NCBI GenBank assembly: GCA_934120395.1
Contig: CAKOTZ010000006.1
Coordinates: 16,914-80,913, forward strand
Source of the DNA: an uncultured Clostridia bacterium
GTDB lineage: Bacteria; Bacillota; Clostridia; TANB77; CAG-508
Length of the DNA stretch: 64,000 nt
Direction of reading: 5' to 3'
The notes beneath the pieces are model-generated. The model searched no databases. It was not told the origin of the DNA and saw nothing but the letters and a program-made list of their open reading frames with translations. A program made the translations under genes and the position numbers. Each line of letters opens with the position of its first letter. Position 1 is the first letter of the stretch. Below are positions 13,183 to 36,060 of this stretch, piece after piece.

Positions 13183-13518
13183 ATGGGAACATACTATATA
13201 CCACGTAATCTAAGAGGAGAAACTAGAATATTGTATATTTTTACTGTAAAGTCATTAATATCAACAGTAGCAGGAGGAGCAGTTGGCTTAATATTTTACC
13301 TTATCTTTTCTGTAATGGGAATAGGAACTGCTGGAATGATTACAATGGGAGTTTGTGCGTTAATTGGATTTTTAATTGGAACAGTAAAAATACCAACAGT
13401 AGCAGGTTTACCATTTACTAAAAAAATAGGTGGAGAGCCACTTAGCGAAATTATAAAAAGATATATCAAATTCAAAATGAACAGAAAAATATATGTTTAT
13501 ACAAAGGAGGAAAAGTAA
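13183..13518 (+). CDS. PrgI/VirB3-like small membrane protein
   Basis: 111 aa. YIPRNLRGETRILYIFTVKSL followed by two TM helices. Sits upstream of VirB4. Confidence 0.55.
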   Translation: MGTYYIPRNLRGETRILYIFTVKSLISTVAGGAVGLIFYLIFSVMGIGTAGMITMGVCALIGFLIGTVKIPTVAGLPFTKKIGGEPLSEIIKRYIKFKMNRKIYVYTKEEK

Positions 13519-13519
13519 T

Positions 13520-14854
13520 ATGAACAGTGCTATCAATATGTTAAATATAGTGTTAGTAATTTTGGTTTTCATTATTTTAGCTTTAGGACTTGCTTATTTT
13601 TATATATCATATCGTAATAAGAACAAATCAAAGGAAGAAATAAGAGCTGCTGAAAAAGGAAATAAAAGCACAGATTACGTGTCTCCTGTTCAAGGAAATT
13701 TAACAAAAGAATCTATATATAAGTTTATGGAATTTGATGAAATAAAGGACAATATGATTATTCGTAAAAATAGAGAGCAATATGTAATGGTAATCCAATG
13801 CCAAGGTGTTAACTATGACTTGTTATCAGAACAAGAAAAAATCGCTGTAGAAGAAGGGTTTGTACAATTTTTAAACACATTGCGCTTTCAAGTACAGTTA
13901 TATGTACAAACAAGAAGTTTAAATTTAAGGGAAATAATTGAAGGATATAAAGGTAGAGTAAAAAACCTAGAACAAGAAGTTGAGCAAATTAGAAGTAAAA
14001 TAAGAGTAGCTGCTAACAGTGGAAATTTACAAGCATTAGAAAAGCTAAGATATGAGGAAAGAAGAAAAGTTAATATTCTAGAATATGGGGCTGATATTTC
14101 AGAATATATAAGTAGAATGAGCTTAAATAAAAATGTATTGCAACAAAAAACCTACATAGTTATTTCATATTTTGCAAATGAACTAGGAAATATTTCTAAT
14201 TACTCAAAATCTGAAATAGATAATATGTGTTTTTCAGAATTATATACAAGGGCGCAATCTGTTATTCGTTCATTAGCATCTTGCGAAGTTAGCGGAAGAA
14301 TATTAAATTCAGAAGAATTGGCAGAATTGCTATACATTGCATACAACAGAGATGATGCAGAATTATTACAATTATCTAAAGCTCTAGATGCAGAATATGA
14401 TGCATTATATAGTACTGCAAAAGATGTATTACAGAAAAAAGAAGAGATGATTGAAAAACAATTAGATGAGGAAGCGGTTGAACTTGCAACAAAAAGTATT
14501 ATGTCTGTTGATGAACAAATGGAACAAGAAAGACTAGAAAAGGCAAAACGAGAAAGAAAAGTAAAACAAAAGGCAGTAAAACTCGTAAATGAATATAGGG
14601 ATCAATTAGAAGATAAAGTATATGAAAGAGTTATTGAAGAAGTAACAGGAAAAAAACAAGAAATAAGTCAGGAAGATGAGCTAGAAAGCGAATATGAAGA
14701 GGCTGTTGAAAAAGCAAAAGAAATAAGAGAGGAAACTGAAAAACCAAAACGAAAAAGAAGAACAAAGAAAGAAATGGAAGAAGCAAAAAAACTTGATGAA
14801 GAAAAGGAAACAGCACCAAAGAAAAGAGGAAGACCAAGGAAAACAGAAGAATAG
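13520..14854 (+). CDS. membrane-anchored coiled-coil protein with Lys/Glu-rich tail and AT-hook-like motif
   Basis: One N-terminal TM helix. The central region resembles the non-ATPase N-terminal part of VirB4 proteins (my inference only). C-terminus PKKRGRPRKTEE. Confidence 0.45.
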   Translation: MNSAINMLNIVLVILVFIILALGLAYFYISYRNKNKSKEEIRAAEKGNKSTDYVSPVQGNLTKESIYKFMEFDEIKDNMIIRKNREQYVMVIQCQGVNYDLLSEQEKIAVEEGFVQFLNTLRFQVQLYVQTRSLNLREIIEGYKGRVKNLEQEVEQIRSKIRVAANSGNLQALEKLRYEERRKVNILEYGADISEYISRMSLNKNVLQQKTYIVISYFANELGNISNYSKSEIDNMCFSELYTRAQSVIRSLASCEVSGRILNSEELAELLYIAYNRDDAELLQLSKALDAEYDALYSTAKDVLQKKEEMIEKQLDEEAVELATKSIMSVDEQMEQERLEKAKRERKVKQKAVKLVNEYRDQLEDKVYERVIEEVTGKKQEISQEDELESEYEEAVEKAKEIREETEKPKRKRRTKKEMEEAKKLDEEKETAPKKRGRPRKTEE

Positions 14855-14876
14855 GCAAAAATAGGAGGAAGGTTTT

Positions 14877-16850
14877 ATGTTTAAGAAGAAAAACAAAAAA
14901 GTACAAGAAGAACAAATTGCAAAAACTGAATATAAAAAAGAAGACTTCATAAAAGAAAATGTAAAGAACATAAAAGATTTAATTGCGCCAGCAGGTATAA
15001 ATGCTGGAAATGTTAATCATTTGGAAATCGTTTCAAACACTACAAGATATGCTAGAACTATGATTGTAGGAACAATTCCGAGAATGTGTACTTTCCCAGA
15101 ATTTTTAAGAAGCATGTATACATTTGGAGATATAAATGTATCTGTATTTATTAACCCAATTAGTGAAAGTACATCACAAACAGAATTGAACAGAACAATT
15201 AATGAATTAGAGTCAGAAAGAATTGTTGCTATTGATAGGGGAGATATAAACAGGGAGAGAATATTAGCACAAAAAAGAGCAGAAGCAGAAGAACTGAGAG
15301 ATGAAATTGCAAGTGGATTTAACAAGTTATTTGAATCTTCTATTATGTGTACTTTGTTTGCATACAGTTTAGAAGAATTAGATAAATATACCGAATTGCT
15401 TGCATCTGAAATGTCAAAAACATTAATAGGAGTTAAACCTGCATGGGCAATGCAAGATGAAGCCTTTCGTAGCAATCTACCATTTGGTGAAAATAAGATA
15501 AATAAAAAACACAGTTTTGATAGAAGATCAATGTCAACTGTTTTTCCATTCTTTACATCAGATGTTGGACATGACAGAGGAATTCCATTAGCGTTTAACA
15601 GACAAACTGGCTTGCCAATTTTATTTGATAATTTCAGTCCAACACTTTCTAATTATAACATGGTTGTTTTTGGAAAGTCTGGTGCTGGTAAAGGTGTTAC
15701 AATAAAAACGTTAACAGCACGTTCTTCAGTATTAATGGGGATAGAAAGTTTAGCTCTTGATGCTGAAGGTGAGTATGGAGTTGTTGCGGAGGCATTAGGT
15801 GGAATCAATGTTACTATAAGTCCAACATCAAAAACAGTTATAAACCTATTTGATTTGGAACCTGAGATAGTAAAGGATGAAATAACAGGTAAAGAAAGAA
15901 CAATATTAAGTGTTGAAAACAAGGTGGAGGACGTTACACAGGCTTTACTTACAATGGCAAGAGGTAGTACAAGAAGTCAGGAAGTAAACGAACTTACAAA
16001 ACAAATTATTGCTGAAGCTGTAGCAGAAGAATATGCCGCACTTGGAATTAACAATAATTTGGAAAGCTTATACATAAATGAAGGTCCAATTGTAAATAAA
16101 GATTATTTAGGTAGACCAAAAAAGGAAATGCCAACAATTGGTTCATGGTATAAAAGAATAGTTAAAAATGCTGAAAACAATACGAACCAAGATTATCGTT
16201 TTCATTATAGCTATTTGATTAAAGTTATGAAACAATATGTTAGAGAATATGAAGGTCAAATGGCATATTTTGATGGACAATCTACTTTTGAATTGCTAGA
16301 TGGTGTACCATTTATAAATTTGGATATATCAAATCTAGAAGAGCGTTTTGCAAGACCACTTGCACAACAAATACTTCTTTCATGGATTTGGGAAAAATAT
16401 GTTAAAAAGAATAGTGAGGACAAAGAAAAAGCCGTACAAAAAAGAGTACTAGTCGATGAAGCGTGGATGTTGCTTCCTTATCCAGAAGCGGTAGACTTCT
16501 TAAATACAATGGCAAGACGTGCTAGAAAAAGAAATGTTTCACTTGCAGTTGTTTCACAGAAGTTTCAAGACTTTTATGAGAAACCAGAAGTACAAGCTGT
16601 ACTTACATCATCAGATACAAAATTATTCCTAGCACAGGACAAATCAGAAATTGATTATATAAAAGAAGTATTTAAGCTAAGCGAAGGAGAAGCATATTTC
16701 TTAACAACCTGTAGTAGAGGTGAAGGACTATTAAAAGTTGGAGATGACACAGCGATAATTGCAATAAAGCCAACAAAGAAGGAGTTTGAATTTGTTGATA
16801 CAAACTTAAACAATTTAGCAAAAAAACAAGAGAGAAAAGTAAGAAGATAA
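14877..16850 (+). CDS. virB4: VirB4-family type IV secretion ATPase
   Basis: 657 aa. Walker A VFGKSGAGKGVT, Walker B RVLVDEAWML, and a typical VirB4 N-terminal domain. Confidence 0.85.
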   Translation: MFKKKNKKVQEEQIAKTEYKKEDFIKENVKNIKDLIAPAGINAGNVNHLEIVSNTTRYARTMIVGTIPRMCTFPEFLRSMYTFGDINVSVFINPISESTSQTELNRTINELESERIVAIDRGDINRERILAQKRAEAEELRDEIASGFNKLFESSIMCTLFAYSLEELDKYTELLASEMSKTLIGVKPAWAMQDEAFRSNLPFGENKINKKHSFDRRSMSTVFPFFTSDVGHDRGIPLAFNRQTGLPILFDNFSPTLSNYNMVVFGKSGAGKGVTIKTLTARSSVLMGIESLALDAEGEYGVVAEALGGINVTISPTSKTVINLFDLEPEIVKDEITGKERTILSVENKVEDVTQALLTMARGSTRSQEVNELTKQIIAEAVAEEYAALGINNNLESLYINEGPIVNKDYLGRPKKEMPTIGSWYKRIVKNAENNTNQDYRFHYSYLIKVMKQYVREYEGQMAYFDGQSTFELLDGVPFINLDISNLEERFARPLAQQILLSWIWEKYVKKNSEDKEKAVQKRVLVDEAWMLLPYPEAVDFLNTMARRARKRNVSLAVVSQKFQDFYEKPEVQAVLTSSDTKLFLAQDKSEIDYIKEVFKLSEGEAYFLTTCSRGEGLLKVGDDTAIIAIKPTKKEFEFVDTNLNNLAKKQERKVRR

Positions 16851-16875
16851 AAAATAAGTAATGGAAGGTGTGTTT

Positions 16876-18010
16876 ATGAAAAAAAGTATATCAATTATAT
16901 TAATAGCAATAATAATAATGTTAAACACACTATTTCCGTCAAATGTTTATGCAGACAATGAAAATAAGGAAGAAGAAACAAGCACATCACAGTCGTTATT
17001 TCAAAGCCAAGATTTTGATGAAGTAACAAAAGCACGGATTAAATGATGGAACAAACTTGATAGAACAAGGTCAAGCATCAATAAATGGCAAGAATCTACA
17101 ACTAACTGAAAGTGGCAATGTTTTTAAGACTATTGGAATAGGATTAATACAAGTGCTTGGTGGAATTCCGCAAGCAGTCAATGTGTTTTTGTCATTAGTT
17201 GTACAACCATATTATACAAATAATAGCAATAATGGTGAATTTCAGTGGTTTTCAATTCAAGATTTGATATATGGAAAAATAGGATTATTCGATATAAACT
17301 TTTTTAAAATACAAAATAATAGTAGTGGCGATAATATAAATACAACAATAAAAACACAAGTTAGCCAGTGGTATTATGTTGTAAGAAATATAGCTATGAT
17401 AGGAAGCTTACTGGCATTGGTGTATGTAGGAATACGTATGGCAATATCAACAGTTGCTTCTGACCAAGCAAAATATAAGCAGATGTTATTAATGTGGTTA
17501 AAAAGTTTTGTAGTATTGTTTGTACTTCCATACATATTTATATTTATTTTTTCAATTGGAGATGCTTTTATAGATATTGTAAAGCAGGTTGCTCCAAAAG
17601 AAAATTTGGATACAGTTATATTAGAAGCATTATATGGTGATATGAACAAAAATGATATTACAGCATCATTTTGGGCATTTATAAATTTATGTATGCTAAC
17701 ATATTTTAACGTAAAATTTTTTGGAAGATATTTATTCCGTTTATTAAAAATAGCATTTTTAATTATAATATCTCCATTAATAACTGTTACATATGCACTA
17801 GGAAAAGACAGCGCATATAAGGCATGGTTAGGTTCATTAATTGGAGCAATATTTATGCAAGTTGTACATATAGTAGTGTATTCAATATTTATGTTCTCAA
17901 CAGCAGAAATAGTAAAAGCAGTTCCAATTTTAATGACAGCATTCTTTATGGCAATGGAAAAAGGAGAAAGAATATTTAATTACGTATTTGGATTAGAGGA
18001 ACAAGAATAG
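16876..18010 (+). CDS. VirB6/TrbL-like polytopic membrane protein; frame changes +1 at CGG 17035-17037
   Basis: The signal-peptide ORF (MKKSISIILIAIIIMLNTLFPSNVYA...) joins the TM body via TKA|GLNDGTNLIEQGQASING. Paralogous to the core of 18077..20527 (shared WYYV.RN.A....L..VY.GI.MAISTVA). Confidence 0.65.
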
Positions 18011-18076
18011 AGAAACAATAGATAAAATTAACTTTTGTTAATTAAAAATTTTATCGATTAGAGGTTTGGTGAGAAA

Positions 18077-20527
18077 ATGAAAAACAAGTGCATGAAAATA
18101 CTGTCAATAATAGTATTAAGTGTTATTATAATAAATTGCATAGGAAATAGTGTTCAGGCAAGTTTGTTTGGCGATTTGGAAGATTGGTGGAATAAGCAAA
18201 ATGATAAGGCTAATCAAATAAGTGGTGGTGTTGCAGGACAAATACCAACAGGAACACCAACAACAGGTACTGGAACAACAAACAGTGGCGAATCAAATAG
18301 TGGTTCAAGCAGTAACTCTGGCACCAACTCTGGTAGCAGTTCGAGTAGCTCAAACAGTTCAAATAAGGGAACAGATCCAGGTGCAAAAGTGGGTAATGCA
18401 ACAGCTCAGAAGAAGGAACAAGATCTTATAGAAAAAGCAGCAACGGCATCAATTGGAGATGCTGCTGGAACCTTGGTAGATGGTGTAGTTGGAATTTTAA
18501 CAACACTTTTAAGAGTTGAAGTTTTATTGGTAGGATTTGCAGGACAATCACTTGCAACTGTAACAGCTAATAGTGCTGGAACCTTAGAAAATGATATAAT
18601 AAACATAGTAACACCAGACCAAATATTATTTAATCGTTTAGCAATTACAGATATAAACTTTTTTCAAACAGATAGTTTTGGAACAGGTAGTAATAAAAAA
18701 ACTCTAGATGCAAATAGTCCAGTAAAAAGCATACGTGAAGGCGTTGCAACATGGTATTATGTATTAAGAACAATGGCAGTTATAATTTTGCTTTGTATTT
18801 TAGTTTACATAGGAATAAAAATGGCAATATCAACTGTTGCTGAAGAAAAAGCTGTATATAAGCAATGGTTTGTTAATTGGCTTGTAAGTATGGCATTAGT
18901 ATTTGTATTACACTATATTATATTGATAGTTATAAATATCAACAATAGTTTTGTAGATTTGCTATATGGAGTAAGAAATCAAACTCTGGGGCAGAGCGAT
19001 TGGGGAAATTATGTTGCAGGATTAATGTTTAAGGGATTAAATCCATTTTCAGCATTAGGTTCTTGGACAGCAGTATTCGTATATTTAGGAATTGTTATAT
19101 TAACATTTGTTTTCCTAATAATGTACATAAAACGTATGATAACAATAGCCTTTTTAATAATTGTATCGCCAATAATAACAATAACTTATTCGATAGATAA
19201 ATTAAATGACAACAAGTCGCAAGCACTAAATACATGGTTTAGAGAATTTGCAGAAGCGGTATTAATACAGCCATTCCACTGTATAATATATTTAGTATTT
19301 ATTAGCTCTGCAATGTCTTGTATAAAAACATCAGGAACTTTAGCTGCTGGAATATTAGTAGTATTCTGTATGTTCTTTATATTCAAAGCAGAAGGTTTAA
19401 TTAAGAAAATATTTGGAATTAAATCAGAATCTGCTGGAAACGGTATGCAGTCTGCTATTGCTGTATTAGGAACGGTAGGTGCTGCTAAAGACCTTATGGG
19501 AAGAACAAAAGGATTAGTAGGAAAAAGTGCAGGAAGTGCGGCAAAAGCCCCTGGAACAGGTGCAAATACAGCTCCTGTAAATGTTAGCACAAATGCGGTA
19601 AAAACAAGCAATATGGCTGAACAAAACATGAAAAATGCGGATAATGTAAATATAGGCAGTGTTCAAAATATGAATGCGAATATACAGTCTGTTGGTGTGG
19701 CTAATTCTGGAGTAACAAATGTCTATGATTCAGAAAGATTAGCAACAATACATGCTGGAGGAATGAATACACAAACAGATTATGATTATCTAATGGGACA
19801 ACAAAGCGGTGCTAGTGAAAATGGTAAAAATAGCAATGAAAATTATACAATCGGTTCAGGAAATGGACTATCTAATGAAAGCATGCCAAATAAAAACGAA
19901 AATGCAAGTAATTTAACACCGGGAATTCACACTAGTGAGATTCCAGATGTAGGAGAAAATGCAGCAACTAATCCGAAGGAAAGAACTATTCCACAAAAAG
20001 CATTACATTTGGCTAAAATGGCAGGTGGAGCAGTTTGGAAGGCAAATAAAGCTGTTGCAGGCGCAGGAATGGCATCTGGTGTTACAGCTGCAGCAATGGC
20101 CAGCGTAGCTGGAAAAGATGTAGGAGAAATGATTGCAGCTGGATATACAGGATATCAAGCTGGAAAGGCAGCGAAGGAAACATTCGAAAACTTAAAAGAA
20201 CAAGGTGGAGATGCTTTAGCAAACTACATGAAGATAAGAAAGAATAATAATTCAGAAAGCTCAAATGCATCAAGTTCTACAACATCTAATAATCAACAAA
20301 GCAGTACGAGTAATGTAGATAGAAGAAAAAATAATAACAATACAAAAACGGCATCTAAGCCAGTAGCATCACAAGCAAAACCAATTTTTCATCCAGATAC
20401 GGAAGGAAAAAGTAGGGATAAAAGAAATAATGTAGTACAAACCCATGATGTAGGAGACAATGGTGAATTAAAGCAAAAGATGGAAGATGTATATAGTTCA
20501 CTAATGAATAATAATAACGGTGAATAA
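18077..20527 (+). CDS. large VirB6/TrbL-like membrane protein with Ser/Gly/Asn-rich extensions
   Basis: 816 aa. Signal peptide, low-complexity STGN region, multi-TM core homologous to the previous gene, and a long low-complexity C-terminus. Confidence 0.6.
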   Translation: MKNKCMKILSIIVLSVIIINCIGNSVQASLFGDLEDWWNKQNDKANQISGGVAGQIPTGTPTTGTGTTNSGESNSGSSSNSGTNSGSSSSSSNSSNKGTDPGAKVGNATAQKKEQDLIEKAATASIGDAAGTLVDGVVGILTTLLRVEVLLVGFAGQSLATVTANSAGTLENDIINIVTPDQILFNRLAITDINFFQTDSFGTGSNKKTLDANSPVKSIREGVATWYYVLRTMAVIILLCILVYIGIKMAISTVAEEKAVYKQWFVNWLVSMALVFVLHYIILIVININNSFVDLLYGVRNQTLGQSDWGNYVAGLMFKGLNPFSALGSWTAVFVYLGIVILTFVFLIMYIKRMITIAFLIIVSPIITITYSIDKLNDNKSQALNTWFREFAEAVLIQPFHCIIYLVFISSAMSCIKTSGTLAAGILVVFCMFFIFKAEGLIKKIFGIKSESAGNGMQSAIAVLGTVGAAKDLMGRTKGLVGKSAGSAAKAPGTGANTAPVNVSTNAVKTSNMAEQNMKNADNVNIGSVQNMNANIQSVGVANSGVTNVYDSERLATIHAGGMNTQTDYDYLMGQQSGASENGKNSNENYTIGSGNGLSNESMPNKNENASNLTPGIHTSEIPDVGENAATNPKERTIPQKALHLAKMAGGAVWKANKAVAGAGMASGVTAAAMASVAGKDVGEMIAAGYTGYQAGKAAKETFENLKEQGGDALANYMKIRKNNNSESSNASSSTTSNNQQSSTSNVDRRKNNNNTKTASKPVASQAKPIFHPDTEGKSRDKRNNVVQTHDVGDNGELKQKMEDVYSSLMNNNNGE

Positions 20528-20532
20528 GGCAG

Positions 20533-28814: not shown

Positions 28815-30023
28815 ATTATATTGCTAATATTAGCAGGAGTGAGTTTGTCAATGGTGCTAGGAGAAAATGGTTTAATTAACAAGGCACAGTCAAGTGTAAA
28901 CAAATACAAAGAGAGTAGCGAAAATGAACAAAAGCTATTAAATAGTATAGAAAATTATATGGATTTACAACTAAAATTACCAGGAGAAAAAGTAGATTTA
29001 CCAGATGGATGGAATAAAGATACAGTAGATGCAGTATTAGATGATAAGAAAAACACAATACCAGTACCAAAGAACTTCTATTATGTAGGAGGGAATTTAG
29101 ATAATGGAGTAATTATATCGGACAATTCAGCTGATGCCTATGATGGAAAAGTAGACAAAACAACATGGGAATATACAACAAGCTTAGTAGGCAACCAATT
29201 TGTATGGATACCATGCACAGAATCTGAATATCATAAGACAGAATGGGAAAGTCAAAGTCAATATGTTTATGGTGTATACGATAAATCGGGACCAAGTCAA
29301 GATGAAATAGATAAAGTTAAAAAATATAATGGTTTTTATGTAGGAAGATATGAAGCAGGGTTAGCAGACACAATAAAAGAATATACAGGAAATCAATTAA
29401 GCGATGGTTCAAATAGTCCAGGATATAATGTAGCAGGAATACCAAAGTCAAAGGCAGGAGAATTACCATGGATATTTATTAACCAAACAAATAGTAAAGC
29501 AAATGCAGAAAAAATGTATGAAAAAAATACTTGTGTAACAAGTGGACTAGTAACAGGAACACAATGGGACGTAATGTTAAACAAATTTATTGGAACAACA
29601 AATGCTAATAGAGTAACTTTTACAGAAGCAGACATGAAAAATTCAAGTAAATGGGGAAATTGTTATAATAATGACTTGATATATACAGGAAGGTCAGCAA
29701 CATTATTTAAGAATGGAAGTAGTGAGTATATAAGCCCATGGGGAGAAAAACAAATAAATGCGGAAACAAAAACAAATACATGTACCGAATATACAACTGG
29801 TGCCAGTAAGTCTACAGAAGCATATCATATTTATGATGTAGCAGGGAATGTATGGGAATGGACGGAGGAGGTCGGACAAGGCACTGCATATCGCGTCATT
29901 CGTGGTGGTTCTTGTGGGAATGATCAAGATACTAGTCCAGCGTGTTGGCGTTATTCTACTCTCAAAGATTATGAGGTGTACTATCACATCGGATTTCGTA
30001 CTGTATTGTATATAAAAAATTAG
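28761..30023 (+). CDS. pilin-like N-terminus plus FGE/C-type-lectin-fold protein (DGR-target paralog with diverged VR)
   Basis: 420 aa. N-terminus NKAITLIALIITIIILLILAGVSLSM. C-terminus YDVAGNVWEWTEE...RVIRGGSC...HIGFRTVLY. Confidence 0.8.
   Translation: MNLKSNKAITLIALIITIIILLILAGVSLSMVLGENGLINKAQSSVNKYKESSENEQKLLNSIENYMDLQLKLPGEKVDLPDGWNKDTVDAVLDDKKNTIPVPKNFYYVGGNLDNGVIISDNSADAYDGKVDKTTWEYTTSLVGNQFVWIPCTESEYHKTEWESQSQYVYGVYDKSGPSQDEIDKVKKYNGFYVGRYEAGLADTIKEYTGNQLSDGSNSPGYNVAGIPKSKAGELPWIFINQTNSKANAEKMYEKNTCVTSGLVTGTQWDVMLNKFIGTTNANRVTFTEADMKNSSKWGNCYNNDLIYTGRSATLFKNGSSEYISPWGEKQINAETKTNTCTEYTTGASKSTEAYHIYDVAGNVWEWTEEVGQGTAYRVIRGGSCGNDQDTSPACWRYSTLKDYEVYYHIGFRTVLYIKN
29893..30007 (+). other. 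VR-like segment not matching the local TR by adenine-only changes
   Basis: Aligns ungapped to the TR over 115 nt but differs at many C/G/T positions. Confidence 0.7.
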
Positions 30024-30148: not shown

Positions 30149-31414
30149 ATGAACAACAAATCAGCAAAGGGTATAACCCTTGTTGCCCTAATTATTACTA
30201 TAATCATTCTACTTATTTTGGCTGGAGTAAGTTTGTCAATGATATTAGGAGACAATGGGCTAATAAAAAAAGCACAAGCTAGTGTTGATGCATACCAACA
30301 AGCGGCATTAAATGAACAAAATTTACTAGATAGCATAGAAAGCTATATGGGAAATTACGGTTTACCAGAAAACACACCAACCACACCTGCAGGAACACAC
30401 GTAAAACCACCAGCAAAATGGTTAGGAACAATTGTAGATGCAGTGGCAGATGGAAAAGGCAACACATTTCCAGTGCCAAAAAGTTTTTACTACGTGGGTG
30501 GAGATTACACAAACGGAGTAATCATATCAGACGACCCAGCAGATGCATACGATGGAACAACAGATAAAACAACATGGGAATATACAACAAGTTTAGTAGG
30601 AAACCAATTTGTATGGATACCATGTACACCAGCAGAATATATAAAAACAAGTTGGGGCATGGTATATGGAGGCTATGATGCAGAAAGCGGAGCAGGAGCT
30701 GAAATGATGCAAGTAGCCAAATATGGAGGATTCTATGTAGGAAGATATGAAGCCGGCTTAGCAGACACAATAGCAGAATATACAGGAAATCAAATATCTT
30801 CTAGTTCAATTTATAATCTAGCAGGAATACCAAAATCAAAGGCAGGAGAATTACCATGGATATTTATCAGCCAAACAAATAGTAAGAAAAGTGCAGAAAA
30901 CATGTACAATACAGACGAAAAACATTCAGACTATGTAACAAGTGGACTAATAACAGGAACACAATGGGATGTAATGTTAAACAGATTTATTGGAACAACA
31001 AATGCTAATGGAGTAACTTTTACAGAAGCAGACATGAAAAATTCAAGTAAATGGGGTAATTATGCAAGTAGTGCAACAACATATACAGGAAGATCTGCAA
31101 CTCTATTTCAAAGTGGAAGTAATTGGTATATAAGTCCATGGGGAGCAAAGCAAACAGATGCAAAAACAGCAACATATACCGAATATACAACAGGAGCAAG
31201 TAAAAAAACAGAAGCATATCACACTTATGACATAGCAGGAAATGTATGGGAGTGGACGGAAGAAGTCGGACAAGGCACTGCATATCGCGTCCTTCGTGGC
31301 GGTTCTTGCGATAATGCTTCAGGTTCTTACCCAGCCTGCTGCCGCCATGGTAACAACTCTGTTTCCTTTGTGTACTATCTCGTCGGGTTCCGTGCCGTAC
31401 TTTACATCAAGTAG
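30149..31414 (+). CDS. DGR variable protein: pilin-like N-terminus plus FGE/C-type-lectin fold
   Basis: 421 aa. N-terminus AKGITLVALIITIIILLILAGVSLSM. C-terminus YDIAGNVWEWTEE...RVLRGGSCDNASGSYPACCRHGNNSVSFVYYLVGFRAVLY. Confidence 0.88.
   Translation: MNNKSAKGITLVALIITIIILLILAGVSLSMILGDNGLIKKAQASVDAYQQAALNEQNLLDSIESYMGNYGLPENTPTTPAGTHVKPPAKWLGTIVDAVADGKGNTFPVPKSFYYVGGDYTNGVIISDDPADAYDGTTDKTTWEYTTSLVGNQFVWIPCTPAEYIKTSWGMVYGGYDAESGAGAEMMQVAKYGGFYVGRYEAGLADTIAEYTGNQISSSSIYNLAGIPKSKAGELPWIFISQTNSKKSAENMYNTDEKHSDYVTSGLITGTQWDVMLNRFIGTTNANGVTFTEADMKNSSKWGNYASSATTYTGRSATLFQSGSNWYISPWGAKQTDAKTATYTEYTTGASKKTEAYHTYDIAGNVWEWTEEVGQGTAYRVLRGGSCDNASGSYPACCRHGNNSVSFVYYLVGFRAVLYIK
31287..31401 (+). other. 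DGR variable region (VR)
   Basis: 115 nt versus the TR: 12 mismatches, all at TR adenines. Confidence 0.9.
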
Positions 31415-31525
31415 ACCTGAACGCTTGTTAGCGATGCACATTGACCTTGTTTAATGATAGAATACGAGTAGATAGTTTGAAGAGGTGACATTATACATAC
31501 GATAAAATAGTAGAGGTTTATTAGT

Positions 31526-31891
31526 ATGGCGGATAATAAAAAAGAATTGATATTAATTCCAAAGTCAGAAAAATATATTCAATATATGATTGAAGTAATT
31601 ATGAAGTTGCCTCGTACAGAGAAATTTAGTATTGGAACCGAATATAAAACAGCAATGTATAAAATGCTTGAAAATATTATGCTTTTAAGCAAGGTGCGAG
31701 CAGAGGAAAAAATAAATTACATCAATTATATAGATGCTGAACTTAATGTTCAAAGAATTTTCTTGAGAATAATGTATAAAAATCAGTGGATAGACGAGAA
31801 ACGTTTTAAAGTAGCTTCAGATTTAATATATGAATTAGGAAAATTAGTAGGAGGTCTTTTAAAATTCTATGGCCAGAACATTAAGAAATAA
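31526..31891 (+). CDS. avd: DGR accessory variability determinant (Avd-like four-helix bundle)
   Basis: 121 aa, helical and basic, immediately upstream of and overlapping the RT. Confidence 0.75.
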   Translation: MADNKKELILIPKSEKYIQYMIEVIMKLPRTEKFSIGTEYKTAMYKMLENIMLLSKVRAEEKINYINYIDAELNVQRIFLRIMYKNQWIDEKRFKVASDLIYELGKLVGGLLKFYGQNIKK

Positions 31892-32885
31892 ATTTGATGA
31901 GTATTTAACTTACGATAATCTAATGCGAGCTCATTTAGAGAGTAGGAAAAATAAGCGTTATAAAAAAGATATCATTTTGTTTGAAATTAAACAAGAAGAT
32001 TATATTAGATATTTATTGGAAGAACTAAAAAATGGTACATATAAGCATGGAGGCTATTCAATCTTTTATGTAAGAGAGCCTAAATTGAGAAAAGTAGAAA
32101 AATCAAGATATATAGATAGGGTCGTGCATAGATGGTTAGTAGATAATTTTTTCATTGATCTATATGTACCAACTTTTATATCAACAAGTTATGCTTGTTT
32201 AAAAGACAGGGGAACGCACAAAGCAGTATGTGATGTGCAAAAAGCAATGCAGCATTGCCTAAGAATATGGAATGAATACTATATATTAAAAATGGATGTT
32301 GCTAAATACTTTCAAAGCATTGATAAAAATATTTTGTTTAATATAATAAAGAAAAAAATTAAAGATAAAAAGGTACTATGGTTGGTAGAACAAATTATTT
32401 ATTCAAATAAGGGAGAAACGGGTATAGCCATAGGAAACTATACTTCACAGATATTTGCAAATTTATATTTAAATGAAGTAGATCAATATATAAAAAAAGA
32501 ATTGAAGGTTAAATATTATTTTAGGTATATGGATGATTCGATAATTCTTGTAAAAACTAAAAATGAGGCAAAATTAATATTAGAAAAAATAAGACAATTC
32601 TTAAGGGAAAATTTAAAATTAGAGTTAAACTCTAAAACTCAAATATTTAAGAATAAACAAGGTGTTAATTTTTGTGGATACAAAATTAATGAATACAGAA
32701 TGAAGGTAAGAGACAGAGGAAAGAAGAAACTTAAAAAAAAGATAAAAATATTAAAAGAAAATGTGAAAAATGGTAAAATGAGTAGTAAAGAGGCTAAGTT
32801 ATACCTGTGTGGGCATGTTGGATATATTAAATATGCAGATGTTCACAATTTAACTAGCAAGCTGTTTTATTTGCCGGAAGAATAA
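31869..32885 (+). CDS. DGR reverse transcriptase
   Basis: 338 aa with IAIGNYTSQIFANLYL (the DGR-type [I/L]GxxxSQ motif) and FRYMDDSIIL. Confidence 0.92.
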   Translation: MARTLRNKFDEYLTYDNLMRAHLESRKNKRYKKDIILFEIKQEDYIRYLLEELKNGTYKHGGYSIFYVREPKLRKVEKSRYIDRVVHRWLVDNFFIDLYVPTFISTSYACLKDRGTHKAVCDVQKAMQHCLRIWNEYYILKMDVAKYFQSIDKNILFNIIKKKIKDKKVLWLVEQIIYSNKGETGIAIGNYTSQIFANLYLNEVDQYIKKELKVKYYFRYMDDSIILVKTKNEAKLILEKIRQFLRENLKLELNSKTQIFKNKQGVNFCGYKINEYRMKVRDRGKKKLKKKIKILKENVKNGKMSSKEAKLYLCGHVGYIKYADVHNLTSKLFYLPEE

Positions 32886-32914
32886 TAATAACATAGGGAT
32901 AAATCAGATGGCGG

Positions 32915-33029
32915 GCGTCATTCGTGGCGGTTCTTGCAATAATGCTTCAGGTTCTAACCCAGCATGCTACCGCAATGGTAACAACTCTGTTTCCAATGTG
33001 AACTATAACATCGGGTTCCGTGCCGTACT
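32915..33029 (+). other. DGR template repeat (TR)
   Basis: Encodes VIRGGSCNNASGSNPACYRNGNNSVSNVNYNIGFRAVL. Rich in AAY codons. Non-coding position downstream of the RT. Confidence 0.9.
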
Positions 33030-33193
33030 CTAATATTATTCGAGATTGTGTGTTTTACGGAATGCATACAGTGAAGTATTAGATATTAAAGAGGTTTATT
33101 CCTTCCTACTTTAGGTAAAAATGAATCAATAAAACATGTATTGGTAGTAAATTTACGAAGATACGTGTTTTATGCTATATATAAGGTGAAAAT

Positions 33194-33472
33194 ATGAATA
33201 AGTGTGTAATAAGTGGAAAAGTATTAGAAGAGATAAAGTTTGATTTCATATATAATAGTAAAAAACATGTATCTATAGCGAAATGTCCTATAAAATTAAA
33301 CAATGATTCAGTATTAAACGTTTTTGGACTAGACGATGAAGCTGATTATATGTATCGACATATAAAAGCGGGAGATATTATTGTTTGCTATGGAAAAATT
33401 AGAAGAATGGATGAAAAATTAGAAGTTGAAGTAATAGAAATAGAAAAAGTAAAGTTCAAAACGAGTCTATAA
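33194..33472 (+). CDS. hypothetical protein (92 aa, beta-rich)
   Basis: ORF with a plausible start. No family recognised. Confidence 0.35.
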   Translation: MNKCVISGKVLEEIKFDFIYNSKKHVSIAKCPIKLNNDSVLNVFGLDDEADYMYRHIKAGDIIVCYGKIRRMDEKLEVEVIEIEKVKFKTSL

Positions 33473-33484
33473 TTTATTTGCCAA

Positions 33485-33892
33485 TTAATTATAAATTTCT
33501 TGTAATTGTTTTTTAATCTGGTCTAGAAACTCAAAAGATTCTTTAAAACTAATATTATTCATGTCAATGGCCATTATAGACTGAATAATATTTTGTGTTT
33601 TCATGTTGTTTAAATAATCGGAGTAATTTTCAATTTTTGAATAGTTTAAATCAATAACTTCAAAAGGAATATTAAAGTTGCTTAGCTGTTTTGTATAGTA
33701 TTCTAATCTTTTTTGAGGAAATCCACATTTAGTAACGCTGTCGTTTAAATTTGTTATTTTAAAATCAAAAAGTTCTGAAATTTTTGTGGCATCTTCGTTT
33801 AGTGCAATATAAAAAATGCCACTTTTAAATAAATATATTGTTGTATTATCCTTATTCTTTAATTTTAAGTATTCTGTATATAATTTGCTCAT
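33485..33892 (-). CDS. stand-alone MutS domain I-like protein
   Basis: 135 aa from the ATG after aggggg. LYTEYLKLKNKDNTTIYLFKSGIFYIALNEDATKISELFDFKIT...CGFP mirrors the MutS N-terminal mismatch-binding domain. Confidence 0.5.
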   Translation of the reverse strand: MSKLYTEYLKLKNKDNTTIYLFKSGIFYIALNEDATKISELFDFKITNLNDSVTKCGFPQKRLEYYTKQLSNFNIPFEVIDLNYSKIENYSDYLNNMKTQNIIQSIMAIDMNNISFKESFEFLDQIKKQLQEIYN

Positions 33893-34064
33893 ATATTTGC
33901 CCCCTATCATATATAAACTCATTTTGAATTCACCTGTTCATAATATAAGCATGCAAGAAAGCAAATACAATCGAAATTTGTCGAATAGTATAAAAATAAT
34001 GTAAATTGTTAGTAACCATTTGAATACTTAGGTAAAATTATATGTTTTAAATAGAATAAAAGGC

Positions 34065-34121: not shown

Positions 34122-34364
34122 ATGACGACTACAATTCAAAAATGGGGAAATAGTCAAGGAGTTAGAATACCAAAAGTAATATTAGATACTGTTAATTGGA
34201 AAGAAAATGAACAAATAACAATAGTTGTCGAGAATGGGAAGGTTATAATGGAAAAGGCTAAAGGAAAAAGAAGAAATATAAAAGAATTATTTGAAAACTA
34301 TAAAGACGAATATGAACCAATTGAAGTGGATTGGGGAGAAATGAAGGGAAGAGAAGTATGGTAA
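34122..34364 (+). CDS. mazE: MazE/AbrB-fold antitoxin
   Basis: TIQKWGNSQGVRIPKVILD (SpoVT/AbrB swapped hairpin). Overlaps the toxin start (ATGGTAA). Confidence 0.8.
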   Translation: MTTTIQKWGNSQGVRIPKVILDTVNWKENEQITIVVENGKVIMEKAKGKRRNIKELFENYKDEYEPIEVDWGEMKGREVW

Positions 34365-34687
34365 AACAAGGTACAATTATAAAAATAAATTTTAATCCTC
34401 AATCAGGGCATGAACAGGCTGGATATAGACCTGCAATTGTAATAAGCAATGATATATTTAATGAAAAAACAAAATTATCAATAGTTTGTCCTATTACAAA
34501 TACTGATAATAATTTTCCATTGCATGTTTCATTAGATGAGAGAACAAAGACTACAGGCGTAATATTATGCGAACATATAAGGGCCTTAGACTTAGAAAGT
34601 AGAACATATCAAGAAGTGGAAAAAGTACCAAAGGATATTTTAAATCATGTAATAGATATTGTTTATGCAGAAATAGAAGAATTATAA
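34358..34687 (+). CDS. mazF: MazF/PemK endoribonuclease toxin
   Basis: GTIIKINFNPQSGHEQAGYRPAIVISND...CPITN...LDLESR. Confidence 0.85.
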   Translation: MVKQGTIIKINFNPQSGHEQAGYRPAIVISNDIFNEKTKLSIVCPITNTDNNFPLHVSLDERTKTTGVILCEHIRALDLESRTYQEVEKVPKDILNHVIDIVYAEIEEL

Positions 34688-36000: not shown

Positions 36001-36053
36001 ATTCAAAAATACACCACTAGCTCTGTTAAAGCGTATGTGGTGTATTTTTGAAT
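36001..36053. terminator. 17-bp perfect hairpin, bidirectional terminator (PBP gene / tRNA-Cys)
   Basis: attcaaaaatacaccac ... gtggtgtatttttgaat. Confidence 0.75.
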
Positions 36054-36060
36054 GACTTAT

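What the first reader, a model, noticed from the sequence alone, without database searches (positions are those of the whole stretch)
29893..30007. Upstream paralog carries a VR-shaped segment that this TR can no longer explain
Gene 28761..30023 is a full-length paralog of the DGR target, and its last 115 nt align ungapped to the TR. The differences include many non-A positions. They also include synonymous changes in the normally invariant flanks (ggc>ggt, tgc>tgt, ggg ttc cgt gcc gta > gga ttt cgt act gta). So this segment is not being overwritten by the local TR. It is either a fossilised VR (a frozen variant kept as a second specificity) or the target of another TR elsewhere in the genome.
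Basis: seen in the sequence. Interest (0 to 1): 0.55.

Follow-up and report, generated by a model that had tools for sequence, protein, structure and literature searches.

The report
Frozen copy of a hypermutation target
Next to a working bacterial "diversity-generating retroelement" sits a second copy of its target gene, and the tip of that copy looks like a hypervariable region but has stopped being rewritten; this kind of stable paralog has been described before.

Summary
Window 29893-30007, the 3' end of gene 28761-30023, aligns without gaps to the template repeat (TR, 32915-33029). It has 39 mismatches: 12 at TR adenines and 27 elsewhere. The true variable region (VR, 31287-31401) has 12 mismatches, all at adenines.

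The retroelement (DGR) is active. Three other strains carry an identical TR, and each has a different target VR that differs at TR adenines (one strain also has two non-adenine differences).

The paralog's segment is frozen. An independent strain that is 97.6% identical differs at 2 of 115 nt, which is the background rate, and neither site is a TR adenine. Its 3' GC-rich homing-like motif has 5 of 17 changes. Its non-adenine changes run 18 GC>AT against 3 AT>GC.

The paralog belongs to an old sister clade (67% aa identity to the target) and is missing from three strains. Of 22 clusters in this family, 19 have equally stable C-termini. Excess divergence at TR-adenine positions suggests past diversification.

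No cognate TR is in the window. The rest of the genome could not be searched. The best reading is a fossil VR in a non-diversified paralog. This is a new example of a kind already described, and of modest interest.

The parts
28761..30023 (+). Upstream paralog of the DGR target. It has a pilin-like N-terminal hydrophobic helix and an FGE/C-type-lectin-fold body, and the ORF is intact.
   Evidence: 67% aa identity to the target. Pfam PF03781, 27.3 bits against a cut-off of 23.3. AlphaFold model pLDDT 87, with best PDB fold match TvpA 2Y3C, a DGR variable protein.
29893..30007 (+). VR-shaped segment, read here as a fossil VR.
   Evidence: Ungapped against the TR: 12 A and 27 non-A mismatches. 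No enrichment at A sites, p=0.16. 2 of 115 nt differ from strain L001. 18 GC>AT against 3 AT>GC changes.
29991..30007 (+). Degraded counterpart of the GC-rich 3' end of the VR (IMH-like): GGATTTCGTACTGTATT against GGGTTCCGTGCCGTACT.
   Evidence: 5 of 17 positions changed, all G/C to A/T. Active-type VRs in relatives keep the GC-rich form.
28371..30010 (+). 1,640-nt module (intergenic element, promoter region and paralog) that is present or absent among strains.
   Evidence: Absent from L123, L125 and L126, where a 44-nt palindrome sits instead. Present in L124 and L001.
30149..31414 (+). DGR target gene.
   Evidence: Protein variants P0123, P0029, P0124 and P0125 differ by at most 1 aa outside the last 45 residues and by 10-12 aa within them.
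31287..31401 (+). Active VR.
   Evidence: 12 mismatches to the TR, all at A (Fisher p=1.6e-9). It differs in every strain, at A sites apart from two non-A sites in L123.
31526..31891 (+). avd accessory gene.
   Evidence: Pfam bAvd PF22296, E=3e-17.
31869..32885 (+). DGR reverse transcriptase.
   Evidence: Pfam RVT_1, E=5e-17. IGNYTSQ and YMDD motifs are present.
32915..33029 (+). Template repeat (26 adenines, GC 0.48).
   Evidence: Identical in L123 to L126.
33028..33173 (+). Structured RNA motif RT-14 (Rfam RF02921), directly abutting the TR.
   Evidence: 122.9 bits against a gathering score of 48.1.
33485..33922 (-). MutS domain-I-only ORF, matching the Msl (MutS-like) DGR accessory class.
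   Evidence: Pfam MutS_I, E=1.5e-11. The class is described in PMC5758913 and bioRxiv 10.1101/2024.11.15.621889.
27918..27980 (+). Remnant of the 5' end of a further family member.
   Evidence: tblastn to paralog residues 1-21: 86% identity, E=9e-5. 27809-27981 resembles 28601-28824.

Best explanation
The segment is the C-terminal ligand-binding loop region of a non-diversified paralog of the DGR target. It is a fossil VR. The local DGR consists of avd, RT, TR, the RT-14 RNA and Msl. It copies the TR into cDNA with errors at adenines and installs that cDNA only in the adjacent target VR. That VR still carries the exact non-A sequence and the GC-rich 3' motif shared with the TR. The upstream gene belongs to an old sister clade of the same protein family. 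Its VR-equivalent was probably diversified in the past (inferred). It then lost its coupling to the TR and has since evolved by ordinary point mutation towards the genome's AT-rich codon usage. It now encodes one fixed loop sequence. It is an accessory gene, present in some strains and absent in others. What is shown: it is not templated by this TR, it is stable between strains, its 3' motif is decayed, and the neighbouring VR is actively diversified. What is inferred: that it was once diversified, that loss of the 3' motif is the reason it is no longer a recipient, and that it still functions as a fixed-specificity binder.
For: TR against paralog gives 27 non-A mismatches, compared with 0 in the window's VR and 0-2 across the four strains. 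Wu et al. report at most 11 in accepted targets. The DGR is active: the TR is identical in 4 strains and the VR differs in each, at A sites apart from two non-A sites in L123. Target proteins differ by at most 1 aa outside the VR and 10-12 aa inside it. The paralog is frozen: 2 of 115 nt differ from L001, against about 2.4% over the rest of the ORF, and both differences lie at non-A TR positions. At protein level there are 13-14 aa differences outside the VR and 1 inside. The non-A changes are 18 GC>AT against 3 AT>GC. GC of the gene tail is 0.39, against 0.48-0.51 for active VRs and the TR. Evidence for an earlier VR phase: against the sister-species ortholog P0164, the core 29915-29990 is 55% different while the rest of the gene is 15% different (p=2e-14), and the differences are enriched at TR-A sites (p=0.001). 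Among 12 non-diversifying paralogs, diversity at codon positions 1-2 is 0.67 at TR-A sites and 0.39 at other sites (p=3e-5). Non-A mismatches form a graded series across paralogs: 0-3, 7, 20, 22, 27, 31-44. In the wider family, 19 of 22 clusters have stable C-termini. There is no A-compatible partner in the window.
Against: Only two independent haplotypes of this paralog were available (window/L124 and L001), so the stability rests on a small sample. L001 is a short metagenomic contig from a multi-copy family in which at least one chimeric contig was seen. Against the present TR, the paralog shows no significant excess of mismatches at A sites (p=0.16). The signal of past diversification therefore comes from comparisons among paralogs. 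It could instead reflect tolerance or positive selection at binding-site residues, which is where TR adenines are placed. The rest of the genome was not searched for another TR.
Confidence: 0.72

Rival explanations
1. Active remote target: the segment is currently rewritten by a second TR, with or without its own RT, located outside the 64-kb window.
For: DGRs with non-adjacent and remote targets exist (Wu 2018 and Schillinger 2012). The species carries many dispersed family members. The rest of the genome could not be scanned. The genome-contig scan failed. The other collections do not contain this organism's paralog.
Against: Two independent haplotypes differ at 2 of 115 nt, which is the background rate. 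Over a similar divergence the neighbouring VR was completely rewritten. GC content has decayed towards the genome average, unlike the TR-maintained VRs. There is no A-compatible partner in the window or in any fetched locus.
Confidence: 0.06
2. Never a VR: the gene is an ancestral, never-diversified family member. Its resemblance to the TR exists only because the TR is itself a copy of the homologous C-terminus of the sister gene.
For: There is no significant A-site excess against the present TR (p=0.16). Non-A divergence (30%) is about equal to third-codon-position divergence across the two genes (30%), as expected for an old paralog. Schillinger 2012 describes stable 'ancestor' paralogs.
Against: The core is 55% different from its sister-species ortholog while the rest is 15% different, and the differences are enriched at TR-A positions. 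The same imprint is seen across 12 stable paralogs. There is a graded series from active VR to decayed VR, including P0019, which has 13 A and only 7 non-A mismatches and a near-intact GC-rich motif.
Confidence: 0.17
3. Decaying pseudogene-like remnant: the paralog is on its way to loss and has no maintained function.
For: The module 28371-30010 is absent from three strains. A truncated 5' remnant of another family member lies just upstream. IMH-like and GC features are lost.
Against: The 420-codon ORF is intact in both haplotypes. It has its own RBS and promoter-like site. The scaffold residues are conserved, and the fold is predicted with confidence (pLDDT 87).
Confidence: 0.05

Closest known systems
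Non-diversified paralogs of DGR target genes ('paralog without a VR', 'remnant TR-VR homology'): Schillinger et al. 2012 (PMC3521204); Vallota-Eastman et al. 2020 (PMC7517822, Nostoc all3226)
   Same: The gene is a member of the same family as the DGR target. It has residual, non-A-only homology to the TR at its 3' end and coexists with an actively diversified copy. Those papers already propose that diversification is removed once a variant is selected.
   Different: Here the fossil lies immediately next to the active target, within about 1.3 kb of it and 2.9 kb from the TR, rather than at a distant locus. Its stability is shown by strain comparison. It is itself a presence/absence polymorphism.
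Multi-target DGRs with adjacent paralogous targets (e.g. those listed by Schillinger 2012 and Wu 2018) and the Treponema denticola DGR with remote targets
   Same: Tandem paralogous FGE/CLec-fold genes sit upstream of avd-RT-TR. The best structural match is TvpA 2Y3C.
   Different: In those systems every listed target shows A-only differences. Here the second gene fails that criterion, with 27 non-A mismatches.
Bordetella phage BPP-1 Mtd/IMH paradigm
   Same: The VR is at the 3' end of a CLec-fold gene. A GC-rich element shared by the VR and TR ends marks the recipient.
   Different: The gene order is target-avd-RT-TR. There is only a weak 4-bp hairpin downstream of the VR. An Msl accessory gene and an RT-14 RNA are present. 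The locus is chromosomal, not phage-borne (no match in the phage collection).

Membership tests
Diversity-generating retroelement (local cassette 30149-33922) | Reverse transcriptase of DGR type ([LIV]GxxxSQ motif, YxDD) | tested here: met
   RVT_1, E=5e-17. IGNYTSQ at residue 193 and YMDD at residue 222.
Diversity-generating retroelement (local cassette 30149-33922) | TR/VR pair that differs only at TR adenines | tested here: met
   12 of 12 mismatches are at A (p=1.6e-9).
Diversity-generating retroelement (local cassette 30149-33922) | Accessory gene (avd, and here also Msl) | tested here: met
   bAvd, E=3e-17, and MutS_I, E=1.5e-11. The Msl class is described in PMC5758913.
Diversity-generating retroelement (local cassette 30149-33922) | Evidence of activity: VR varies between strains at A sites while the TR is constant | tested here: met
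   Four strains have an identical TR and four different VRs, with 10-14 A and 0-2 non-A mismatches.
Active DGR variable region (for 29893-30007) | Differs from a TR only, or almost only, at adenines | tested here: not met
   27 non-A mismatches to the only TR in the window. The best other A-compatible site in the window has at least 24 incompatibilities. The published maximum in accepted targets is 11.
Active DGR variable region (for 29893-30007) | 3' end shares the GC-rich IMH-type sequence with the TR | tested here: not met
   5 of 17 positions changed.
Active DGR variable region (for 29893-30007) | Hypervariable between closely related strains while the gene body is constant | tested here: not met
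   2 of 115 nt and 1 aa differ in the segment, against 13-14 aa differences elsewhere in the protein. Only two independent haplotypes were available.
Active DGR variable region (for 29893-30007) | A cognate TR exists somewhere in the same genome | not testable with these tools
   Only 64 kb of the genome is available. Collection scans were uninformative.
DGR variable-protein fold (FGE-type C-type lectin) | FGE-sulfatase/CLec fold with the VR at the C-terminal end | tested here: met
   PF03781, 27.3 bits against a cut-off of 23.3. Model pLDDT 87. Foldseek top hit TvpA 2Y3C (E=1.6e-4, prob 1.0), followed by TaqVP 5VF4 and Mtd.
Stable (non-diversified) paralog of a DGR target with remnant TR homology | Paralogous to a verified target, with residual TR similarity that includes non-A differences, and stable in the population | tested here: met
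   19 of 22 family clusters behave the same way.

The most novel reading that the evidence does not exclude
The family works as a 'diversify, duplicate and freeze' archive. One copy next to the DGR is continuously rewritten. Useful variants are captured by duplication or recombination into tandem and dispersed copies that lose the homing motif. Each genome then carries roughly 8-10 or more fixed-specificity binders, which are themselves gained and lost between strains. The window's paralog would be one such archived variant. The graded series of non-A decay (0-3, 7, 20, 22, 27, 31-44) would be a clock of successive freezing events.
Probability: 0.3. Interest if true: 0.55.

Novelty: new member of a known kind. 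Interest (0 to 1): 0.3.

Why it matters
This is a clean natural control for DGR targeting. Two homologous genes lie 125 bp apart. One is rewritten in every strain and the other is untouched. The sequence differences between them point to what a recipient needs: exact non-A identity, the GC-rich 3' motif, and possibly the downstream context. It also shows that most members of this large gut-bacterial family of pilin-like CLec proteins carry stable, mutually very different loop sequences. That fits the published idea that DGR-generated variants can be fixed by uncoupling them from the TR. For annotation, it is a warning against calling a VR from ungapped similarity to a TR alone.

Tried and rejected
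1. I scanned genome contigs with an A/W/R/M-degenerate pattern (TR = VR or A at each position). The scan was swamped by poly-A assembly artefacts. All 120 returned stretches were A or T runs and none was a real match.

2. I repeated the scan with fixed non-A anchors on JGI metagenomes and IMG/VR. There were no hits, not even the paralog itself, so the negative result says nothing about a second TR.

3. The search for related loci on metagenomes returned only relatives at 50% identity or less, so no further strains were gained.

4. The phage collection gave no match to the locus. The region is chromosomal and lies next to T4SS-like genes.

5. A PDB search by sequence gave no hit. The fold search was needed instead.

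6. I looked for a downstream cruciform like that of BPP-1. There is only a weak 4-bp stem after the target VR, with no significant folding (z=0.5), and nothing after the paralog. This was not used as evidence.

7. I tried to retrieve the sister species' TR. Both look-ups returned a contig that ends just after the target gene. The fossil status of P0164 is therefore inferred from the window's TR: its neighbour P0018 has only 3 non-A mismatches to it, while P0164 has 20.

8. The second gene on contig L150 is a chimera of P0018 (N-terminus) and P0036 (C-terminus). This could be an assembly artefact or a real recombination. It was not used.

Full report
**Anatomy of the locus.** The window carries a complete DGR.
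- Target gene: 30149-31414 (+).
- avd: 31526-31891 (Pfam bAvd, E=3e-17).
- RT: 31869-32885 (RVT_1, E=5e-17, with IGNYTSQ and YMDD motifs).
- TR: 32915-33029.
- Rfam motif RT-14 (RF02921, 122.9 bits): 33028-33173, directly after the TR.
- MutS domain-I-only ORF: 33485-33922 on the minus strand. This matches the published Msl accessory class (PMC5758913 and bioRxiv 10.1101/2024.11.15.621889).

The VR at 31287-31401 differs from the TR at 12 positions, all of them TR adenines (Fisher p=1.6e-9).

**Checking the observation.** Gene 28761-30023 is a full-length paralog of the target, with 67% aa and 74% nt identity. Its last 115 nt (29893-30007) align without gaps to the TR, with 39 mismatches: 12 at A and 27 at non-A positions. 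One of them, GCC>ACT, is Ala>Thr and so is not synonymous. The alignment reflects homology: blastn of the two gene tails gives E=2e-9, and tblastn of the paralog against the TR frame gives E=7e-6. Mismatches are not enriched at A sites (12/26 against 27/89, p=0.16). The present TR therefore does not explain the segment. Twenty-seven non-A differences is far above the maximum of 11 that Wu et al. accepted for any target.

**Is there another TR in the window?** I scanned both strands for any site compatible with the paralog segment, meaning each base identical or A. Only the segment itself was found. The next best sites have at least 24 incompatibilities, which is the level of A-rich background. 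The same test on the real VR finds the TR with zero incompatibilities.

**Population evidence.** Protein and contig look-ups recovered loci of the same species from human-gut metagenomes.
- L124 is the same clone as the window, with 1 mismatch in 21 kb.
- L123, L125 and L126 are about 98% identical.
- L001 is 97.6% identical.

All four complete loci (L123 to L126) have a TR identical to the window's. The target VR is different in each of the four strains, with 10-14 A and 0-2 non-A mismatches. At protein level the four target variants differ by at most 1 residue outside the last 45 residues and by 10-12 inside them. The DGR is therefore active on this timescale.

The paralog behaves differently. 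It differs between the window and L001 at 2 of 115 nt in the VR-shaped segment (29906 T/C and 29948 G/T). Both are non-A positions of the TR. This rate equals that of the rest of the ORF. At protein level there are 13-14 differences outside the segment and 1 inside it. It argues against current diversification by any TR.

**Signs of decay.** The GC-rich 3' end shared by the TR and VR is GGGTTCCGTGCCGTACT. In the paralog it reads GGATTTCGTACTGTATT, with 5 of 17 positions changed, all to A or T. Overall, the non-A changes are 18 GC>AT against 3 AT>GC. GC content of the last 135 nt is 0.39, compared with 0.48-0.51 for active VRs, 0.48 for the TR, and 0.29 for the window as a whole.

**Age and origin.**
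- Third codon positions of conserved residues are only 70% identical between paralog and target.
- The paralog's closest relatives, at 76-81% aa identity (96% for its own ortholog), form a separate clade found in other species and at other loci.
- In a sister species the same tandem order is conserved: a clade-A gene, P0164, sits upstream of a clade-B target, P0018.
- P0164 has 20 non-A mismatches to the window's TR. Its neighbour P0018 has 3. The upstream copy is therefore uncoupled there too.
- Patches of 92-97% nt identity between the window's two genes (for example 29538-29657 against 30938-31057) indicate gene conversion in the gene body that stops short of the VR core.

**Was it ever a VR?** Against its sister-species ortholog P0164, the core 29915-29990 is 55% different while the rest of the gene is 15% different (p=2e-14). 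The differences are enriched at positions where the TR has A (18/26 against 28/89, p=0.001). Across 12 non-diversifying paralogs, nucleotide diversity at codon positions 1-2 of the core is 0.67 at TR-A sites and 0.39 elsewhere (p=3e-5). Non-A mismatches to the TR form a graded series among paralogs: 0-3 in active copies, then 7, 20, 22, 27 and 31-44. These results fit repeated freezing of formerly diversified copies. The caveat is that TR adenines sit at binding-site codons, which may also tolerate or favour change without a DGR.

**Family context.** The paralog model (pLDDT 87) matches the DGR variable proteins TvpA (2Y3C), TaqVP and Mtd, as well as FGE enzymes. Twenty-two clusters of the family (at 90% identity) have at least two full-length members. 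Of these, 19 have stable C-termini and 3 are hypervariable only there: the window's target, P0024 and P0033. Genomes hold many copies. One example is a six-gene tandem array, L131. It comes from the same sample as the DGR contig of L125 and has the same coverage, about 126x.

**The paralog is accessory.** Window 28371-30010 (1,640 nt) contains a conserved 34-nt intergenic element, the promoter region and the paralog. It is absent from L123, L125 and L126, where a 44-nt near-perfect palindrome lies between the same flanks. The tandem arrangement is shared with the sister species, so loss in those strains is the simpler reading.

**Comparison with the literature.** Stable paralogs that coexist with diversified targets were reported by Schillinger et al. 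2012. A paralog with 'remnant TR-VR homology', together with the idea that diversification is removed once a good variant is selected, was reported by Vallota-Eastman et al. 2020. The finding is therefore a well-documented new example of a known kind.

**Limits.** Only two independent haplotypes of the paralog were available. The rest of the source genome could not be searched. One collection scan was wasted on poly-A artefacts, and the other collections do not hold this organism. Short metagenomic contigs of this multi-copy family can be chimeric.

**Verdict.** The reading 'not overwritten by this TR' is supported, and 'fossil VR' is favoured at about 0.7. 'Never a VR' stands at about 0.17 and 'active target of another TR' at about 0.06. 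Interest is modest.

Noticed in passing
window 33485-33922 (-): A 145-aa ORF made only of MutS domain I lies just downstream of the TR and is conserved in all strains. It matches the Msl (MutS-like) DGR accessory class described by Wu 2018 and in the Bacteroides DGR preprint 10.1101/2024.11.15.621889.
   Followed up: partly
window 33028-33173 (+): A strong Rfam hit to RT-14 RNA (RF02921, 122.9 bits) starts at the last bases of the TR. It is likely the structured RNA part of the DGR template transcript, possibly equivalent to the spacer/priming region of BPP-1. That equivalence is inferred, not tested.
   Followed up: no
window 33194-33472 (+): A small 92-aa ORF with a weak OB-fold match (PF01336, E=1.5e-4, below the cut-off) lies between RT-14 and Msl. 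It is present in every strain's cassette and could be a further accessory gene.
   Followed up: no
L123/L125/L126 9822-9865, corresponding to window 28371-30010: Where the paralog module is missing, the other strains carry a 44-nt near-perfect palindrome, TGTAGGTTAGTCAATAATTTGTGACAAATGATTGACTAACCTAC, which does not occur in the window. It could be a deletion scar, a terminator or a recombination site.
   Followed up: partly
window 28378-28411 and 27732-27765; 20 more copies in L002 and L123-L132: A 34-nt element, TTACCGCCTACACAAAAATATATGAAAATTTAGC, follows the stop codon of almost every family member and also the AAA_14/DUF4143 gene. It is nearly invariant across species while the genes themselves diverge. 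It may be a regulatory or recombination signal of the tandem-array unit.
   Followed up: partly
window 27918-27980 (+): A 21-codon remnant of the N-terminus of another family member, with its upstream region (27809-27981 resembles 28601-28824), shows that the array has suffered deletions.
   Followed up: partly
L131 9369-10643 (P0019): A family member in a six-gene array away from the DGR has 13 A but only 7 non-A mismatches to the species' TR, and a near-intact GC-rich 3' motif (GGGTTCCGTGCGGTACT). It may be a recently retired target or an occasional remote target. No second strain was available to test this.
   Followed up: partly
L131 6626-7165 and L132 1862-2401: A ToxN-family toxin gene is embedded in the six-paralog array. 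In the window, a MazE/PemK pair lies at 34122-34687, just beyond the DGR.
   Followed up: no
L150 1648-2916: This gene has an N-terminal ~160 aa identical to P0018 and a C-terminal part equal to P0036. It is either an assembly chimera or a real recombination between family members. Short contigs of this family should be treated with caution.
   Followed up: partly
window ~13500-23200 (+): T4SS/conjugation-like genes (VirB4/TraG-type ATPase at 14877-16850, T4SS pilin at 17057-18010, cell-wall hydrolase at 20533-23169) lie upstream of the DGR. Two pilin-like-signal CLec proteins next to a conjugation module recalls the pilus-associated DGR targets of Bacteroides.
   Followed up: no
L123/L125/L126 15897-17352, corresponding to window 36049-36057: The strains that lack the paralog carry an extra AAA_14/DUF4143 gene on the minus strand that is absent from the window. 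Genes of this type flank several family members (L128, L129) and coincide with indel boundaries.
   Followed up: no
window 29538-29657 vs 30938-31057; also 29160-29219 vs 30569-30628: Patches of 95-97% nt identity are embedded in gene bodies that are otherwise 40-75% identical. This suggests ongoing gene conversion between paralog and target that does not extend into the VR core.
   Followed up: partly
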